Source: Coraliomargarita sp. (lineage in GTDB: Bacteria; Verrucomicrobiota; Verrucomicrobiia; Opitutales; Coraliomargaritaceae). Taken from it: 64,000 nucleotides of DNA. Numbering within the stretch: the stretch's first letter is position 1; each line of letters begins with the position of its first letter. The position numbers and the translations under genes are program-made. Shown piece by piece: positions 6,527-10,503 of this stretch. The stretch lies in the NCBI GenBank assembly GCA_965216325.1, contig OZ244160.1:896001-960000 (forward strand), read 5' to 3'. The notes under the pieces were generated by a model. It made no database searches. It was not told where the DNA came from and was given only the letters and a program-made list of their open reading frames with translations.

Positions 6527-8170
6527 ATGACTGCTCCCACTAGACTTGATGTCGGCGAATCAGCGTTTCAGGAGCGTCCTGAGTTACAGAGTCATTTGGC
6601 GATCGAGAGCTTCGTTGCACTTGCACGTAAGCCGGGGCGTGTATTGGTGACGGATTGCACCCTACAGCGCCGAGAGATGAAGGCTGGCTTTTTGTTGGCA
6701 CTGGCGTGGATGCTGTCTCGCTTGATCTTGCAGAAGACCGAGAAGCAACGAGTGGGCATTGTGTTTCCTCCGGGGATCGGTGGTTACATTGCCAACCTCG
6801 CAGTCGTCCTCGCGGGCAAGGTGCCGGTTAATTTGAATTTTACGCTTGGCCGGGCCAGTGCGGAGGCGTGCTTGCGCAAGTCCGACATTGATTGCTTGCT
6901 GACCGCACAGGCGGTGAAAGCAAAGTTGCCGAATTTTCCATGGCCCGAGTCTGGCTTGATCGATGTTGTGCTTGAGTTGCAGGCCATTTCGAAGCCGAAG
7001 ACGATTGCGCTGCTTGTGGCAATCTACGCGCTGCCGGCTAAGTTGTTGGCCAAGTTACTCAAGGTTCCGAGCCAAGGTGATCGAACAGAAGCCGGTTTGC
7101 TCTTTACGAGTGGCAGCTCCGGCGAGCCCAAAGGGGTGGTGCTCACACACCGCAATATCTTGGGGAATTGCATGCAAATTGATGCCTCCGGCCTGTTGCC
7201 TGCCGATCAGAAGATCATCGCGAACCTCCCGATTTTCCATAGCTTCGGCTTCACGGTTACGCTCTGGTATCCACTGCTACGCGGCTGCGGAGTGGTCTCC
7301 CTTCCGTCGCCTTTGGAGGTTAAGAAGATCGCCGATACGATTGAAGCGGAAGGTGCCTCTGTCTTGGTAGGCACTCCAACCTTCTTTAAGCCCTATTTGA
7401 AGCGCATTGCGCCCGAGAAGTTGAAGAGCTTGCGCTATGTGATCGCTGGAGCAGAGAAGACCCCGGATGGCTTTGCAGATCATTGGGAGCAAACCTTTGG
7501 TAGCACTTATTTGGAGGGCTATGGACTCACTGAAACCTCCCCCGTGGTGAGTGTGAATCTTCCAACCGCACCTAAAGAAGGAGACTATCCCGGTGATCCC
7601 GATGTGGGGAATCGCCGTGGTTCAGTGGGACGTCTGATGCCTGGGCAGACGGCCCGTATTCTGAATCCGGATACACTCGAAGATTGGCCGATTGACGCAG
7701 TTGGGGTGTTGGCTGTCAAAGGGCCGAATGTTTTCGGCGGATATTTAGATGAACCCGAGCGCACGGCAGAGGTCATGGATGGTGAATGGTTCATTACCGG
7801 TGACTTGGCACGTATCGATGACGATGGCTTTATTTACATCGAGGGGCGCTTGTCACGTTTCTCCAAGATTGCTGGAGAGATGGTGCCGCACGGCACGGTT
7901 GAGGAGTGCTTGAATCGTGCTTTTAATCTACTGGATGCTGAAGTGCCGATGCTGGCTGTTGCCGGGCGTCCCGACGAGTCGAAGGGCGAGGCTCTGGTAT
8001 TGTTGACTGCGATTGATCTCGAATTGGATCAGGTGCGCGAGAAGCTGGCAGCCGAGGGCCTGAGCAATCTCTGGATTCCCAAAGAAATTAAACGCGTAGA
8101 AGCCATTCCGACGCTGGCGACTGGTAAGCTCGATCTAAGAGCGATTCAGGTTGCTGCGCTTGAGGGGTAA
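6527..8170 (+). CDS. AMP-binding acyl-[ACP]/CoA synthetase (Aas C-terminal domain-like)
   Basis: [44 protein letters not shown] motifs. Confidence 0.9.
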
Positions 8171-8227
8171 ATTCGTAGATGACATGGGCGTTTATCAGGA
8201 GCACGGAAGTGCTATGATGATAAACTT

Positions 8228-9316
8228 ATGCAAAACCCCACATCATCTACACGGACAACTAAGAACGCACTGGGCACAGTAATCAAGCTTGGCATTGACG
8301 TGCATGCGAGCACCTACGTGGTGGTCATGAAGATCGATAGCAGCGCCCCTTCACGCGCGAAGCGCATGAAGCCTGATATCTTCCTTCGATGGATTAAGCA
8401 GCTGAGCACTCAGTGCGAGCAGTTGCAAAGTTGCTACGAGGCCGGTCCTTTTGGTTACAGCCTGCACCGCAAGCTCAAGGCGATGGGCGTGAACAACCAC
8501 GTAATCCGCCCGATCAACTGGGACACTCATGGTAAGAAGGTAAAGACCGACGCGCGTGATGCGTTGCAAATGGTCTTGAGTCTGGACGGCTATCTGCGGG
8601 GCAATGACCGCAGCTTCAGTGTCGTGCGTGTGCCCAGCGAGCAAGAAGAGCGTCACCGCAGCCTAACCCGGCAGCGTGAAAGCTTCGTCAAAGAACGTGG
8701 CCGTGCGGCCAAGCGTGGTAAGAGTCTGGGACTGTATTACGATCAACCCTTACCCAGCGGCTGGTGGAAGCCGCGCAAATGGATGCAGCTACTCGAACAG
8801 CTCGACGATTTTTTGATCAGCCTGCTGGAGCCACTGCGGTTAAACTGCCTGCACTTTAGCGAGCTAATCAGCAACATCGAAGAACGTATCGAAGCGCTCG
8901 AGCCGGAACGGGTGCTGCCTAAAGGCATGGGGGTGGTCCTCTATGAACAGATCGAACGTGAGGTCTGCAACTGGAAGCGATTCAACAACCGCAAGGCGGT
9001 CAGTTCCTTTACCGGACTGTGCCCAAGCGAAGACACTAGTGCAAATCGGCGTTTCCAGGGCTCGATCAACAAACACGGCAGTCCCCGCCTGCGGCATATG
9101 CTACAAGAGTGCGCCTGGTTATTGATCCGGTGGAATCCCGGCTACAGTGGGGTGCGTAAATGGCAGGCCAAGCTCAGCGACGAGACCACCAGTAAGGCGA
9201 CCCGCAAGAAAATTGCCGTGGCCATCGCCCGGCAGTTCGCCGTGGACTGGTGGCGCATACGCACTGGCCAATGCAGTCTCGAAGACTTCGGACTGATAAG
9301 CAGACAAAACCCATAA
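8228..9316 (+). CDS. IS110-family DEDD recombinase/transposase
   Basis: GIDVH, CYEAG, KTDARDA (D-E-D-D); FTGLCPSEDTSA...GSINKHG..RLR; AVAIARQ. Confidence 0.95.
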   Translation: MQNPTSSTRTTKNALGTVIKLGIDVHASTYVVVMKIDSSAPSRAKRMKPDIFLRWIKQLSTQCEQLQSCYEAGPFGYSLHRKLKAMGVNNHVIRPINWDTHGKKVKTDARDALQMVLSLDGYLRGNDRSFSVVRVPSEQEERHRSLTRQRESFVKERGRAAKRGKSLGLYYDQPLPSGWWKPRKWMQLLEQLDDFLISLLEPLRLNCLHFSELISNIEERIEALEPERVLPKGMGVVLYEQIEREVCNWKRFNNRKAVSSFTGLCPSEDTSANRRFQGSINKHGSPRLRHMLQECAWLLIRWNPGYSGVRKWQAKLSDETTSKATRKKIAVAIARQFAVDWWRIRTGQCSLEDFGLISRQNP

Positions 9317-9380
9317 GTCCGAACCAACGCTAAAGGCCTTCACCCTCTGATTTTAACGTTCTTTTGCAGTTTTCCTTTGT

Positions 9381-9530
9381 GCGGAGTGAGTCTGACCAAG
9401 CCCCTGTTGCCAACACAACGATTTTGTAGAATAGGCCACTTCGCCACCAAGCTTTTGAATGACCCAATGGATAGGTCATAGTGTGCTCTTCTGAGAAACA
9501 CTCAGAAACACGGATAGCAGGTTATCCCGG
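9381..9530 (+). ncRNA. putative bridge RNA/seekRNA of the IS110 element (boundaries approximate)
   Basis: two stem-closed internal loops carrying AAGCCCCTG + GTAG (target-matching) and AGGTCAT + ATAG (donor-matching) segments. Confidence 0.7.
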
Positions 9531-9651
9531 ATCATCGAAACTCCGAGGCCATGCGCGGTGGACGCTCAAAGACGATTGCAATCAAAACAAACCACTTATC
9601 TTATGTAAAAACACTCACACGCTTCTACACTCTTGACAGAAACGAACATAG

Positions 9652-9762
9652 CAGGGGCTTTGCTCGCCGTTTAGACAAGCTCAAGGCCCTGAGACTGTCG
9701 AGGGGCGGAGCCCTTCAATAGCATGTGCGCATCAGGTGCGGGTGGCGCAAGCACCACCCCTA
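9652..9762. repeat. GTAG-type REP composite interrupted by the IS110 element
   Basis: stem GGGCTTTGC/GCGGAGCCC enclosing GACAAGCTCA...TGAGACTGTC, plus terminal hairpin GGGTGGCGCAAGCACCACCCCTA. Confidence 0.65.
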
Positions 9763-10398
9763 TGCCTTCACCTTAAACAAGGTGCCGCCTAGGCTACGGG
9801 GCTTCTGCTCGGAGGTGGCGGTGCCTTCGTCGCTGATCAGTTGGCCGTCTTCAAAGTAGCCGGGCTCTTTTCGCCAGTGCTTTTCGAGTTCGTCGTAGAG
9901 GTCGAGTAGCTCGTCGAGTTCGGTCACGCGGAATTCGATAGTTTTGGCATGTGTGGCGATCGGGTATTCTTTCATCACGACGTCGCCGGTGATGGTTTCG
10001 GTGATGCCGCGGGCTTTGTCGGCCATGGCTTGCACGCCGGGGACGTTCGCTGCACTGCCCGTTGGGATACCCGTCGTCGCTGTTGTAACGTTGCTCACTG
10101 CAGCGGCGTATTCGCCAGGCATCAGAGGGCGGGAGTAGTAGATGCGCAGTAGCGCATTGGCGTCAGTCATGACATTCACTTCAACGACTCGAAAGCCAGT
10201 GGTAATGTATTCCTGCTTAGAGATGGAGCGGAGCATGTTTTCACGTGCGAAGTAAGCTCGGGTTTCGCCCGGAAATTCGATGCCGAAGAGCTGCTTGTTA
10301 CGAATTGCGTTGGTGTCGACAGTGACTGCGCCTGCAGTGCTGAGGGCAGACAGTCCAAGTAGGAACAAGGGGGTAAATAGTTTGGTTTTAAGAAACAT
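9760..10398 (-). CDS. hypothetical exported protein
   Basis: probable start MFLKTKLF gives a Sec-type signal peptide; no recognised domain. Confidence 0.7.
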   Translation of the reverse strand: MFLKTKLFTPLFLLGLSALSTAGAVTVDTNAIRNKQLFGIEFPGETRAYFARENMLRSISKQEYITTGFRVVEVNVMTDANALLRIYYSRPLMPGEYAAAVSNVTTATTGIPTGSAANVPGVQAMADKARGITETITGDVVMKEYPIATHAKTIEFRVTELDELLDLYDELEKHWRKEPGYFEDGQLISDEGTATSEQKPRSLGGTLFKVKA

Positions 10399-10503
10399 TA
10401 TGATTAAGTGTGCTGCGTATGAAACGTGCGGAAAGCAAATATGTTGCACACTTAGTAATTTGATTTTGTGTAACTATTCAAGCCTGTCGCCTATATACCT
10501 CTC

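What the first reader, a model, noticed from the sequence alone, without database searches (positions are those of the whole stretch)
8171..9660. IS110/IS1111 element with a readable bridge RNA whose guides match its own target and donor sites
Seen: TAG flanks both ends (8176-8178; 9649-9651). The reconstructed empty target on the minus strand is AAGCCCCTG-CT-ACGAA and the reconstructed circle junction is ATGTCAT-CT-ATGTT. Loop 1 in the right non-coding end is closed by GCGGAGTG (9381) pairing with CACTTCGC (9437-9444). It contains AAGCCCCTG (9398-9406; 9/9 match to the target arm), an inner GTTG/CAAC stem and TTTGTAG (9423-9429; 6/7 to the other arm, including the core). Loop 2 is closed by ATGACC/GGTTAT. 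It contains AGGTCAT (9473-9479; 6/7 to the donor arm), an inner TTCTGAG/CTCAGAA stem and ATAG (9514-9517; complementary to CTAT). Known: IS110-family recombinases are guided by bispecific RNAs with target- and donor-binding loops, and IS1111 members encode them downstream of the ORF. Inference: this is an intact, possibly reprogrammable RNA-guided recombinase with a CT core.
Basis: partly seen in the sequence, partly recalled or inferred. Interest (0 to 1): 0.8.

Follow-up and report, generated by a model that had tools for sequence, protein, structure and literature searches.

The report
Bridge-RNA insertion sequence targeting REP repeats

Summary
Window 8179-9652 is a 1474-bp IS110-family element: a short left end, a 362-aa DEDD/Ser transposase gene and a 336-nt right non-coding end. 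The genome holds 9 copies, 8 of them identical. Every copy sits at the head of a REP-like repeat.

The right end encodes a conserved RNA of about 185 nt (9381-9565). In a 25-sequence alignment 93.6% of cells pair, and 23 of 28 pairs show compensatory changes. Its target loop carries AAGCCC-CU (9398-9405) and UUUGU-AG (9423-9429). These match the right and left flanks, and both guides change with the flanks in relatives (permutations 6 and 2 of 20000).

- **Empty sites:** unoccupied sites in the same genome read TTGT-AG-GGGCTT, not GTAGCAGGGGCTT.
- **Core and right end:** the duplicated core is AG (CT on the minus strand), at 8177-78 and 9653-54. The IS ends at 9652.
- **Circle junction:** the predicted junction is ...CATAGC-AG-ATGACAT....
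- **Right-donor guide:** it is AUAGC-AG (9514-9520).

No expression or activity data exist. This is a new member of a known kind.

The parts
8172..8178 (+). Left half of the target: TTCGT plus core AG (8177-8178)
   Evidence: Left flanks of the 9 copies read NNYGT-AG in 8 and ACGA-AG in 1. They match the RNA guide UUUGU-AG.
8179..9652 (+). The insertion sequence proper, 1474 bp (1476 bp with one core copy)
   Evidence: 9 copies, 8 identical and 1 with a single substitution. The ends are fixed by paralogous empty sites, the REP consensus and REP-paralogue contigs that align only from 9653 onward.
8179..8185 (+). Left-end terminus ATGACAT (donor arm next to the core)
   Evidence: The left end starts ATGACAT in most relatives with a readable left end. 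Exceptions are ATGATAT in L012, ATGCCAT in L037 and ATGGCAT in L051.
8191..8201 (+). Left subterminal inverted repeat, 12 nt from the terminus
   Evidence: 8 of 11 bases match the reverse complement of 9630-9640 at offset 0, that is, at equal distance from both termini.
8228..9316 (+). Transposase/recombinase gene, 362 aa
   Evidence: Pfam PF01548 and PF02371. NCBIfam NF033542 scores 137.8 bits against a cutoff of 140. A PDB profile search hits ISCro4 and IS621. D24, E71, D108, D111 and S271 are invariant.
9381..9565 (+). Bridge/seek RNA, minimal extent set by the outermost conserved helix (9381-83 with 9563-65)
   Evidence: RNAalifold consensus. The covariance model R1 finds it in all 9 copies. 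93.6% of cells pair and 23 of 28 pairs are compensatory. G-U pairs fit the + strand.
9390..9436 (+). Target-binding loop, closed by GUCUG (9390-94) / UAGGC (9432-36), with inner stem 9406-09/9416-19
   Evidence: Closing stem: 95% of cells paired, 4 of 5 pairs compensatory. Inner stem: 92%, 3 of 4 pairs. In alignment A4 the figures are 92.8% and 98%.
9398..9405 (+). Left target guide AAGCCC plus core-binding CU; pairs with + strand 9653-9660
   Evidence: 8 of 8 in all 9 copies. Covaries with the flank in relatives: 62 of 72 positions against 43.1 on permutation, reached by 6 of 20000 permutations. New target types appear.
9423..9429 (+). Right target guide UUUGU plus AG; same sense as left flank 8172-8178, so it pairs with the minus strand
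   Evidence: 6 of 7 here, and the mismatch is U opposite G (wobble). Covaries in relatives: 24 of 36 against 13.8, reached by 2 of 20000 permutations. L050 matches 7 of 7, L036 6 of 6, and L051 6 of 7 including the core.
9430..9431 (+). Position of the target-loop handshake dinucleotide (AA here, AU in most relatives)
   Evidence: By analogy with IS621 (PMC11208158 passages). AU would pair with ..AT of the donor left arm. The left end hardly varies, so covariation cannot test this.
9444..9448 (+). 5' strand of the long-range helix (with 9557-9561) that closes the donor domain as a multiloop
   Evidence: 6 of 6 pairs have compensatory changes and 94.7% of cells pair. RNAalifold also predicts it.
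9473..9479 (+). Candidate left donor guide AGGUCAU (unresolved; it can also be the 3' arm of the hairpin 9459-64/9474-79)
   Evidence: 6 of 7 to the left end here and 7 of 7 to the usual ATGACAT terminus in the Synoicihabitans elements (6 of 7 to L012's own ATGATAT), but only 4 of 7 in the L017 group. One compensatory change is seen in L037. The hairpin pairs in 56% of cells.
9482..9512 (+). Inner stem-loop of the donor domain (UGUG/CACG plus UUCUGAG/CUCAGAA)
   Evidence: 92.6% of cells pair and 6 of 7 pairs are compensatory. The one variant copy has C>A at the position equivalent to 9509, inside this stem.
9514..9520 (+). Right donor guide AUAGC plus core AG; same sense as the right-end terminus 9648-9652 plus core 9653-54
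   Evidence: 7 of 7. GGATAG-AG is invariant in 26 sequences except the fifth base. That base is G in L021 and L051, whose right ends also read ATAGG-AG.
9521..9522 (+). Position of the donor-loop handshake dinucleotide (GU)
   Evidence: The first base is G where the target base next to the core is C. It is C in L021 (target G) and U in L022 (target A). L048 does not fit.
9630..9640 (+). Right subterminal inverted repeat; contains TTGACA (9633-9638)
   Evidence: The CTTGAC motif lies 14 nt from the right-end terminus in most relatives. In the predicted junction it sits 17 nt upstream of TGACAT, a weak -10.
9653..9660 (+). Core AG (9653-54) plus right half of the target, GGGCTT
   Evidence: Identical in all 9 copies. 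It is the head of the REP-like repeat.
9654..9713 (+). REP-like palindromic repeat (long form) that carries the target
   Evidence: The family has about 100 heads in the genome (106 by my pattern; listing). Here it lies between convergent genes 6527-8170 (+) and 9760-10449 (-).

Best explanation
Window 8179-9652 is an intact, recently active insertion sequence of the IS110 family with IS1111-type layout: a short left end, the transposase gene, then a long right non-coding end.

Shown here:
- It encodes a DEDD/Ser recombinase.
- On the same strand, 3' of the gene, it encodes a structured RNA of about 185 nt.

Inferred by analogy with IS621 and the IS1111-type seekRNA elements:
[quoted passage not shown] The two pairings overlap on the 2-nt core (AG on +, CT on -).
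- **Donor domain:** this is a multiloop closed by a long-range helix. It presents AUAGC-AG, which reads the right-end terminus plus core. Probably a weaker guide around 9473-79 reads the left-end terminus.
- **Reaction:** a recombinase tetramer exchanges strands at the core between the circularised element (junction ...CATAGC-AG-ATGACAT...) and the REP head. This inserts the element without further duplication.

A TTGACA box in the right end may form a junction promoter. That is speculative, because the -10 is weak.
For: **Protein.**
- Pfam PF02371 (E 4.9e-14) and PF01548 (E 9.4e-7) both match.
- NCBIfam 'IS110 family RNA-guided transposase' matches at E 4.7e-40.
- A profile of 10 homologues hits ISCro4 (E 3.6e-6) and IS621 (E 1.4e-3) in the PDB. 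GIDV, KTDxxDA and GLxPxxxxS align to their counterparts.
- D24, E71, D108, D111 and S271 are invariant.

**Copies.** There are 9 full copies. Eight are identical and one has one substitution. All 9 have AGGGGCTT on the right, and 8 of 9 have YGT-AG on the left.

**Boundaries.**
- 74 of 106 REP heads are preceded by GTA.
- 5 intact units of a tandem array read TTGTAGGG(G)CTTT, and the sixth carries the IS.
- Contigs of REP paralogues align only from 9653 onward.
- The subterminal repeats are equidistant from the termini only with these ends.

**RNA.**
- Conserved in 20 related loci and in 10 of 151 genomes of the order, own genome included.
- 93.6% of cells pair against 74.3% in shuffles and at most 49.7% when partners are slid. 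23 of 28 pairs are compensatory.

**Guides.**
- Own-flank matches are 62 of 72 (left target guide) and 24 of 36 (right target guide). Permutation means are 43.1 and 13.8, reached by 6 and 2 of 20000 permutations.
- Further target types match in L044 (10 of 10), L047, L050 and L051.
- The fifth base of the right donor guide changes C to G together with the right end in L021 and L051.

**Layout.** Guide order (top-strand complement 5' of bottom-strand complement, overlapping in the target) is as described for IS1111-type seekRNAs (PMC11187229 section 9).
Against: - No RNA data exist. No listed sequencing run is on record as an RNA holder, so transcription, RNA ends and processing are unknown.
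- No sigma-70-like promoter was found in 8100-9800.
- No circle junction or empty form of this locus was seen in the four contig runs laid.
- The left donor guide is not established. It varies among relatives while the left end stays nearly constant, and here its core-adjacent dinucleotide is AG, not CU.
- NCBIfam falls just under its cutoff (137.8 against 140) and PF01548 barely passes (29.2 against 29).
- The residue after the catalytic Ser is Ala, not the usual Gly.
- Misfits among relatives: the L043 left flank (GGT-AG against guide UAA-AG); the L045 right flank, which is unrelated to its guide; L017, L018 and L025, which match imperfectly; and L048, which needs a 1-nt offset.
- The relatives are kin, so the permutation figures overstate independence.
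- Alignment A4 was fitted to the model.
Confidence: 0.88

Rival explanations
1. The element ends at 9648, with TAG (or its AG) as the repeated core. The empty target is AAGCCCCTG-CT-ACGAA and the circle junction is ...GAACAT-AG-ATGACAT.... The 9-nt guide is 9398-9406, and CAGG after AUAG in the donor loop is a handshake with the target.
For: TAG is present at both junctions in 8 of 9 copies. The RNA matches the right junction over ATAGCAGG whichever way that stretch is divided, so RNA-to-junction matches alone cannot decide. One site in the genome, C1:1266371 minus strand, reads exactly GTAGCAGGGGCTT at a REP head.
Against: - Only 1 exact such site exists, against 34 GTAGGGGCTT.
- 74 of 106 REP heads have GTA directly before GGGGC.
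- All five paralogous empty units lack CAG.
- G9406 is the invariant first base of the inner stem (G-C in 25 of 25).
- The left target guide would lack core pairing, because UU follows AAGCCCCUG.
- In L021 the guide reads CAG where the flank reads GAG, while the donor guide follows the G.
- The subterminal repeats would be 3 nt out of register.
- The junction -35/-10 spacing would be 14 nt instead of 17.
Confidence: 0.06
2. The element is a genuine IS110-family IS, but the matches between the right non-coding end and the flanks are remnants of captured REP sequence rather than RNA guides. Site choice would then be made by the protein, or by the REP hairpin alone.
For: AAGCCCCT is simply the reverse complement of the REP head, which is abundant in this genome. 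No RNA evidence exists. A target stem-loop is reported as a specificity determinant for ISPpu10 (abstract of 10.64898/2026.03.19.712850).
Against: The same two loop positions carry different sequences in relatives, and these match their own different flanks: GGGTCA, GGAGTC, CGGTGTC, GAGGGGAG, GAGGT, GGCGC. They sit in a structure with compensatory changes. This layout has been shown experimentally to guide targeting in IS1111-type and IS110-type elements (PMC11187229 abstract and section 9; PMC11208160 passages).
Confidence: 0.03
3. The copies are now immobile relics. The protein or the RNA is defective (Ala after the catalytic Ser, AG instead of CU beside the putative left donor guide), and the copy number reflects past activity only.
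For: S271 is followed by Ala, whereas the Gly after Ser in IS621 contacts D102 (PMC11208158 passage). The subterminal repeat is weaker than in relatives: the CAT/ATG ends replace CCCCAT/ATGGGG. No junction was seen in contigs.
Against: 8 of 9 copies are identical over 1474 bp, and the ninth differs at one base. This argues for very recent spread. All ORFs are open (none of the 5 scored copies has a stop). Relatives carry A, D, N or G after the Ser, so the Gly is not conserved in this clade. Contigs cannot show rare circles.
Confidence: 0.1

Closest known systems
IS1111-type elements with a seekRNA (ISEc11, ISPa11, ISKpn4, ISPst6; Siddiquee et al. 2024, PMC11187229; abstract and sections 6, 9 and 13 read)
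   Same: - The long non-coding region lies downstream of the transposase gene.
- The RNA carries a top-strand-complementary segment 5' of a bottom-strand-complementary segment, and the two overlap in the target.
- Subterminal inverted repeats are present.
- Each IS has one specific target.
   Different: - The transposase is 362 aa (330-350 is stated for IS1111 members).
- The motif is GL-P----SA, not SG or TG.
- The subterminal repeat matches only 8 of 11.
- The host is in Verrucomicrobiota (Opitutales).
- Phylogenetic placement against named IS1111 members was not tested.
IS621 bridge recombinase and bridge RNA (Durrant et al. 2024, PMC11208160 passages; Hiraizumi et al. 2024, PMC11208158 passages)
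   Same: - A DEDD plus Ser active site.
- A 2-nt CT core included in the guide pairings.
- Two guides per loop that read opposite strands.
- Handshake positions 3' of the right guides.
- A predicted circular intermediate.
   Different: - The RNA lies in the right end, not the left.
- Guide order relative to the gene is reversed.
- The donor domain is a multiloop closed by a long-range helix, not a simple internal loop. Durrant et al. noted this for many IS1111 orthologues.
- The protein is only remotely similar: profile E 1.4e-3, and no single-sequence hit.
ISPpu10 and ISPpu9 of Pseudomonas putida (abstract of 10.64898/2026.03.19.712850; abstract and section 13 of PMC12288879)
   Same: Multi-copy IS110-family elements inserted in repetitive extragenic palindromic or stem-loop-bearing intergenic repeats. 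For ISPpu10 a junction promoter and a target stem-loop next to the guided site are reported.
   Different: The phylum and the REP family differ. Whether the REP hairpin is required here is untested. No free-standing copies of the RNA were found here (the 10 model hits are 9 copies plus one other IS). ISPpu9 has orphan ssr9 copies.
ISCro4 transposase (PDB 9t56)
   Same: It is the best solved-structure match to the profile of this clade (E 3.6e-6), and the catalytic motifs align.
   Different: Only two short stretches align. I read nothing about its RNA or target.

Membership tests
IS110 family (DEDD transposases) | N-terminal DEDD/RuvC-like domain (PF01548) plus C-terminal Transposase_20 domain (PF02371) | tested here: met
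   PF02371 scores 52.9 bits (cutoff 21.3) and PF01548 scores 29.2 bits (cutoff 29, marginal). NF033542 has E 4.7e-40 but 137.8 bits against a cutoff of 140, just below.
IS110 family (DEDD transposases) | Catalytic D, E, D, D and the Ser nucleophile in the G--P----S motif | tested here: met
   D24, E71, D108, D111 and S271 are invariant in 10 homologues. They align to the GIDV, KTDxxDA and ..SG stretches of ISCro4. The residue after Ser is Ala, not Gly.
IS110 family (DEDD transposases) | Site-specific insertion with a 2-nt core and no long target duplication or terminal inverted repeats | tested here: met
   9 of 9 copies lie at REP heads. Comparing empty with occupied sites gives a 1474-bp element plus AG. 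The termini ATGACAT and ATAGC are not inverted repeats.
IS1111 subgroup | Long non-coding region downstream of the transposase gene | tested here: met
   The left end is 49 nt (8179-8227) and the right end is 336 nt (9317-9652).
IS1111 subgroup | Subterminal inverted repeats of 7-17 bp | tested here: inconclusive
   8 of 11 match, 12 nt from each terminus. By eye it is about 8 of 10 in the Synoicihabitans relatives. The repeat is imperfect.
IS1111 subgroup | Transposase of 330-350 aa with GL-P----S(T)G, clustering with IS1111 in a tree | tested here: inconclusive
   The protein is 362 aa with GLCPSEDTSA. No tree against named IS1111 or IS110 references was built, because none was at hand.
Bridge RNA / seekRNA | Internal loop with two guides that pair with opposite strands of the target and overlap at the core | tested here: met
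   Guides 9398-9405 and 9423-9429 flank a covarying inner stem inside a covarying outer stem. They change with the flanks.
Bridge RNA / seekRNA | Donor-binding guides for both element ends | tested here: inconclusive
   The right donor guide AUAGC-AG matches 7 of 7, and two lineages covary. The left donor guide matches 6 of 7 here but is not supported across relatives, with one compensatory case in L037.
Bridge RNA / seekRNA | RNA is transcribed, binds the recombinase and is required for transposition | not testable with these tools
   No RNA holder is listed. Contigs cannot show RNA ends.
Rfam families | Match to a curated covariance model | tested here: not met
   cmscan of 8000-9900 at E up to 10 returned only two snoRNA chance hits, and none overlaps the guides meaningfully.

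The most novel reading that the evidence does not exclude
This Opitutales clade represents a distinct architectural variant of the bridge RNA, with three features:
- The whole RNA is clamped by a long-range helix.
- The donor ends are read from a multiloop.
- In the window's subgroup the segment facing the left end cannot pair with the core, because it reads AG instead of CU.

Donor recognition would therefore rest mainly on the 7-nt right-end guide plus protein contacts. The REP hairpin that starts at the core would act as a structural gate on target choice, as proposed for ISPpu10. The single GTAGCAGGGGCTT site would then be a 3-bp scar of excision in the alternative register at the internal AG.
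Probability: 0.2. Interest if true: 0.5.

Novelty: new member of a known kind. Interest (0 to 1): 0.35.

Why it matters
RNA-guided IS110/IS1111 recombinases are being developed as programmable tools for DNA insertion, and natural diversity is their raw material.

This element is a compact system (362 aa plus an RNA of about 185 nt). Eight of its nine copies are identical, so it has probably been mobile recently. Its target, core, ends and three of its four guides can be read from sequence and cross-checked in relatives.

It comes from a phylum for which my one literature search gave no listed title or abstract on the subject (10 of 15 hits listed). For genome biology, it shows a REP-like repeat family in a verrucomicrobial genome acting as the landing pad of an RNA-guided IS.

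It does not change the known picture of how such elements work.

Tried and rejected
- **Rfam:** no family matched, only chance snoRNA hits.
- **Single-sequence PDB search:** no hit. The profile search was needed.
- **Sequencing runs:** no RNA holder is listed.
- **Laying four contig runs:** no joints, so neither a circle junction nor an empty form of this locus was seen. Contigs drop rare forms, so nothing follows about activity.
- **Pattern scan for empty sites in four relatives' genomes:** the 10-mers are too short to decide between the two boundary models.
- **Promoter scan:** no sigma-70-like site in 8100-9800. The 3 terminator-like sites (1.8 expected) all lie inside the ORF.
- **Whole right end folded alone:** no more stable than shuffles (z +1.0). 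The 166-nt core gives z -1.4. Single-sequence folding is therefore uninformative here, and covariation carries the case.
formed in the minimum-energy fold, but only 70% of cells pair across relatives. It competes with the better-supported helices 9381-83/9563-65 and 9444-48/9557-61.
- **Hairpin 9459-64/9474-79:** 56% of cells pair. Unresolved.
- **L022:** I looked for its left end to test the left donor guide. The element is truncated and gives no clear answer.
- **Permutation test on the enlarged set of elements:** not run (see steps_to_tell). The new loci are therefore described case by case only.
- **Not attempted:** protein structure prediction, the large protein-database searches, and a tree against named IS110/IS1111 references. 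I cannot say whether this IS already has an ISfinder name.
Full report
**1. What is there**

The region holds one long ORF, 8228-9316 on the + strand, 362 aa. It lies between a converging acyl-CoA-synthetase-like ORF that ends at 8170 and a minus-strand ORF at 9760-10449.

Protein evidence:
- Both Pfam domains of IS110 transposases are present: PF02371 (E 4.9e-14) and PF01548 (E 9.4e-7, 29.2 bits against a cutoff of 29).
- It matches NCBIfam NF033542 'IS110 family RNA-guided transposase' at E 4.7e-40. The score of 137.8 bits is just under the curated 140.
- A single-sequence search of the PDB found nothing.
- A profile of ten homologues hit ISCro4 transposase (9t56, E 3.6e-6) and IS621 transposase (8wt6, E 1.4e-3). 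The GIDV, CYEAG, KTDxxDA and GLxPxxxxS stretches aligned.
- D24, E71, D108, D111 and S271 are invariant in that alignment.
- The residue after the Ser is Ala here and A, D, N or G in relatives. In IS621 it is a conserved Gly (PMC11208158, passages read).

**2. Copies and flanks**

The window's genome is one contig of 3.06 Mb. It holds nine full copies. Eight are identical over the element. The ninth, C1:2070242-2071711 on the minus strand, differs by one substitution, equivalent to window 9509 C>A.

All nine copies are followed by AGGGGCTT(T/C)GCT.... Eight are preceded by YGTAG and one by CGAAG. They do not.

**3. Where the element really ends**

The right flank is the head of a REP-like palindromic repeat. 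My pattern finds 106 heads in the genome. 74 are preceded by GTA and 13 by GCA, and nine of those 13 are the IS right ends.

Counts of the two candidate empty sites:
- GTAGGGGCTT occurs 34 times, against 7.9 expected from base composition.

The cleanest evidence is a tandem array of about 290-bp units at C1:1554000-1555500. Five intact units read ...CCTACCTTGCGTTGTAGGG(G)CTTTGCTTGCC... (two with GGGG, three with GGG). The next unit reads ...CCTACCTTGCGTTGTAG, then the IS, then ...ACATAGCAGGGGCTTTGCTTGCG.

The insertion is therefore 1476 bp: a 1474-bp element (window 8179-9652) plus one copy of AG. The TAG at 9649-51 is internal to the element.

Three further observations agree:
- Contigs of unoccupied REP paralogues align to the window only from 9653 onward.
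- The subterminal repeats, 8 of 11 matching, lie exactly 12 nt from each terminus only with these ends.
- In relative L021, the base corresponding to 9652 follows the donor guide and not the target guide.

The target is thus TTYGT-AG-GGGCTT on the + strand, or AAGCCC-CT-ACRAA on the minus strand. The predicted circle junction is ...CATAGC-AG-ATGACAT....

**4. The RNA**

The search for related loci gave 20 loci in Opitutales and other Verrucomicrobiota, at 72% to about 47% amino-acid identity. A protein search of 401 genomes of the phylum found 8 with a match, own genome included. The 3' non-coding regions align well.

RNAalifold predicts 27 pairs, 21 of them with compensatory changes.

I built a covariance model from 17 sequences. 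It finds:
- all nine copies;
- a tenth locus in the own genome, belonging to a different IS;
- matches in 10 of 151 genomes of the order, own genome included.

On the 26-sequence model alignment (25 distinct rows), 93.6% of cells pair. Shuffles give 74.3% and slid partners at most 49.7%. 23 of 28 pairs show changes on both sides. That alignment is fitted to the model, so it leans towards the structure.

Helices in window coordinates:
- 9381-83 with 9563-65
- 9390-94 with 9432-36
- 9406-09 with 9416-19
- 9444-48 with 9557-61
- 9482-85 with 9509-12, plus 9489-95 with 9501-07
- a short hairpin near 9527-45

Frequent G-U pairs fit the + strand. Single-sequence folding is not informative (z +1.0 and -1.4). 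Rfam has no matching family.

**5. Target guides**

Inside the loop closed by 9390-94/9432-36 lie two guides:
- AAGCCC-CU (9398-9405) is complementary to + strand 9653-9660. It abuts the inner stem.
- UUUGU-AG (9423-9429) has the same sense as the left flank TTCGT-AG. The single difference is U opposite G, and three of the nine copies have T there.

Examples of relatives whose guides track their own flanks:

| Element | Left target guide | Right flank |
|---|---|---|
| L011 | UGAAGCCC-CU | AG-GGGCTTCA |
| Synoicihabitans elements | UGACCC-CU | AG-GGGTCA |
| L016 | UGACUC-CU | AG-GAGTCA |
| L021 | CGACACCG-CU | AG-CGGTGTCG |

The right target guide reads GU-AG, GA-AG, AA-AG or UU-AG, in step with left flanks GT-AG, GA-AG, AA-AG and TT-AG.

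Permuting which element goes with which flank gave these results:
- Left target guide: 62 of 72 positions match the element's own flank, against a mean of 43.1. 6 of 20000 permutations reached this (12 elements with a readable right flank).
- Right target guide: 24 of 36, against 13.8. 2 of 20000 reached this (9 elements with a readable left flank).
- Elements without a readable flank were left out. The elements are kin, so these figures overstate independence.

Loci found later with the RNA model add new target types:
- L044, in the same genome: CUCCCCUC-CU against AG-GAGGGGAG.
- L047: GCGCC-CU against AG-GGCGC.
- L050: ACCUC-CU against AG-GAGGT, and UUUGU-AG against TTTGT-AG.
- L051: CGGU-AG against CGGT-AG.

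Misfits:
- The L043 left flank is GGT-AG against guide UAA-AG.
- The L045 right flank is unrelated to its guide. This element also has its left end only 458 nt upstream of the RNA.
- L017, L018 and L025 match imperfectly.
- L048 needs a 1-nt offset.

The order of the guides (top-strand complement first) and their overlap in the target are those described for IS1111-type seekRNAs (PMC11187229 section 9).

**6. Donor side**

GGAUAG-AG is invariant in all 26 sequences except its fifth base. AUAGC-AG (9514-9520) equals the last five bases of the element plus the core. In L021 and L051 both the RNA and the right end read ATAGG-AG. This is the right donor guide.

The next base occupies the position of the IS621 handshake guide (PMC11208158 passages). 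It is G where the target base beside the core is C, C in L021 (target G) and U in L022 (target A). L048 does not fit.

- It matches the left end 6 of 7 here.
- It matches the usual ATGACAT terminus 7 of 7 in the Synoicihabitans elements (6 of 7 against L012's own ATGATAT).
- It matches only 4 of 7 in the L017 group, although the left end is the same.
- The dinucleotide next to it is AG here and CU in that group.
- One compensatory case exists: in L037 the left end changes A to C and the RNA changes U to G.

The segment can also pair with 9459-64 as a hairpin, but only 56% of cells pair across relatives. In contrast, the long-range helix 9444-48/9557-61 has 6 of 6 compensatory pairs.

The donor domain is therefore a multiloop. 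Durrant et al. remarked on this for many IS1111 orthologues (PMC11208160 passage). The left donor guide stays open.

**7. Mechanism**

Shown here: the anatomy, the copy number, the target, the core, the RNA structure, and covariation between guides and flanks.

Inferred from IS621 and the seekRNA elements: the RNA is made and binds a recombinase tetramer. The element circularises. Target and donor are paired to the two loops, and strands are exchanged at the CT core through a phosphoserine intermediate.

Whether excision is cut-out or copy-out is debated even for IS621 (abstracts of PMC13626964 and 10.64898/2026.08.31.748434).

TTGACA (9633-38) lies 14 nt from the right terminus here and in most relatives. 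In the predicted junction it sits 17 nt upstream of TGACAT. That -10 is weak, and no promoter-like site passed the scan in the linear copy. The junction promoter is a suggestion only.

**8. Comparison and verdict**

This is a member of the IS110 family with IS1111-type layout and a bridge/seek RNA. Subgroup membership is not fully settled:
- The subterminal repeat is imperfect.
- The protein is 362 aa with an SA motif.
- No tree was built against named references.

REP-targeting IS110-family elements are known, for example ISPpu9 and ISPpu10 (abstracts read). That ISPa11 targets REPs is recalled, not read.

My one literature search for IS110 with Verrucomicrob* found 15 papers. None of the 10 listed titles or abstracts concerns such an element.

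The finding is real and well supported, but it is a new member of a known kind. Its value lies in a fully readable, apparently young system, and in the corrected boundary, junction and guide assignments.

Noticed in passing
own genome C1:2769468-2771004 approx. (locus L044:272-1808); outside the window: A second, different IS110-type element with an intact 384-aa transposase (L044:328-1482) and its own bridge-like RNA (136 bits with model R1). Its guide CUCCCCUC-CU matches its right flank AG-GAGGGGAG 10 of 10. Its left flank GTCA-AG matches its guide ACCA-AG only next to the core.
   Followed up: partly
own genome C1:1266371, minus strand; outside the window: The only exact GTAGCAGGGGCTT in the genome, at a REP head with no IS. 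It could be a 3-bp scar from excision at the internal AG of ...ATAG-CAG, or just a REP variant.
   Followed up: no
own genome C1:1554000-1555500, minus strand; outside the window: A tandem array of at least 5 units of about 290 bp. Each unit contains a REP head, and the next unit is interrupted by an IS copy. The array served as a source of paralogous empty sites; its own nature is unknown.
   Followed up: partly
whole genome; window example 9654-9713: A REP-like repeat family of about 100 members in two forms. The short form is GGGGCTTTGCTTGCGAAGCCCGC. The long form has an internal ...TGAGCTCAGGCCGAATGGCG... or ...GACAAGCTCAAGGCCC... segment. Members often occur as inverted pairs. A related GGGCCTTTGCTTGCAAAG(T/C)GCC subfamily also appears in the listing.
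   Followed up: partly
window 8175-8193 and 8232-8250: An inverted repeat of 19 nt, 79% complementary, between the left junction plus left end and codons 2-8 of the transposase gene. The second arm (CCCACATCATC, encoding PTSS) is conserved in relatives. It is possibly a translational or DNA-level control element.
   Followed up: no
window 8191-8224: A left-end hairpin, TTTATCA...TGATAAA, with an inner GCAC-GGAA-GTGC just upstream of the start codon. The Synoicihabitans relatives have TTGTCAG...CTGACAA at the same place, which suggests covariation (by eye).
   Followed up: no
own genome, e.g. C1:1321798, 1371401, 1640488 (+) and 8 sites on the minus strand; outside the window: An identical stretch of at least 86 nt (the 22+14+50 shown) recurs at 11 places in the listing (TCGTCTGTTTGGGCACGCGAAT...). 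This points to another multi-copy element in the genome.
   Followed up: no
L045 (genome handle G496), locus coordinates 1043-1780 approx.: A relative whose left end lies only 458 nt upstream of the RNA, so it has no room for a full transposase gene. Its right flank does not match its guide. It is possibly a deletion derivative or a rearranged copy.
   Followed up: no
copy C1:2070242-2071711 (minus strand); outside the window: The only non-identical copy. It combines a substitution in the inner donor stem (equivalent to window 9509 C>A) with the only non-consensus left flank (ACGA-AG).
   Followed up: partly
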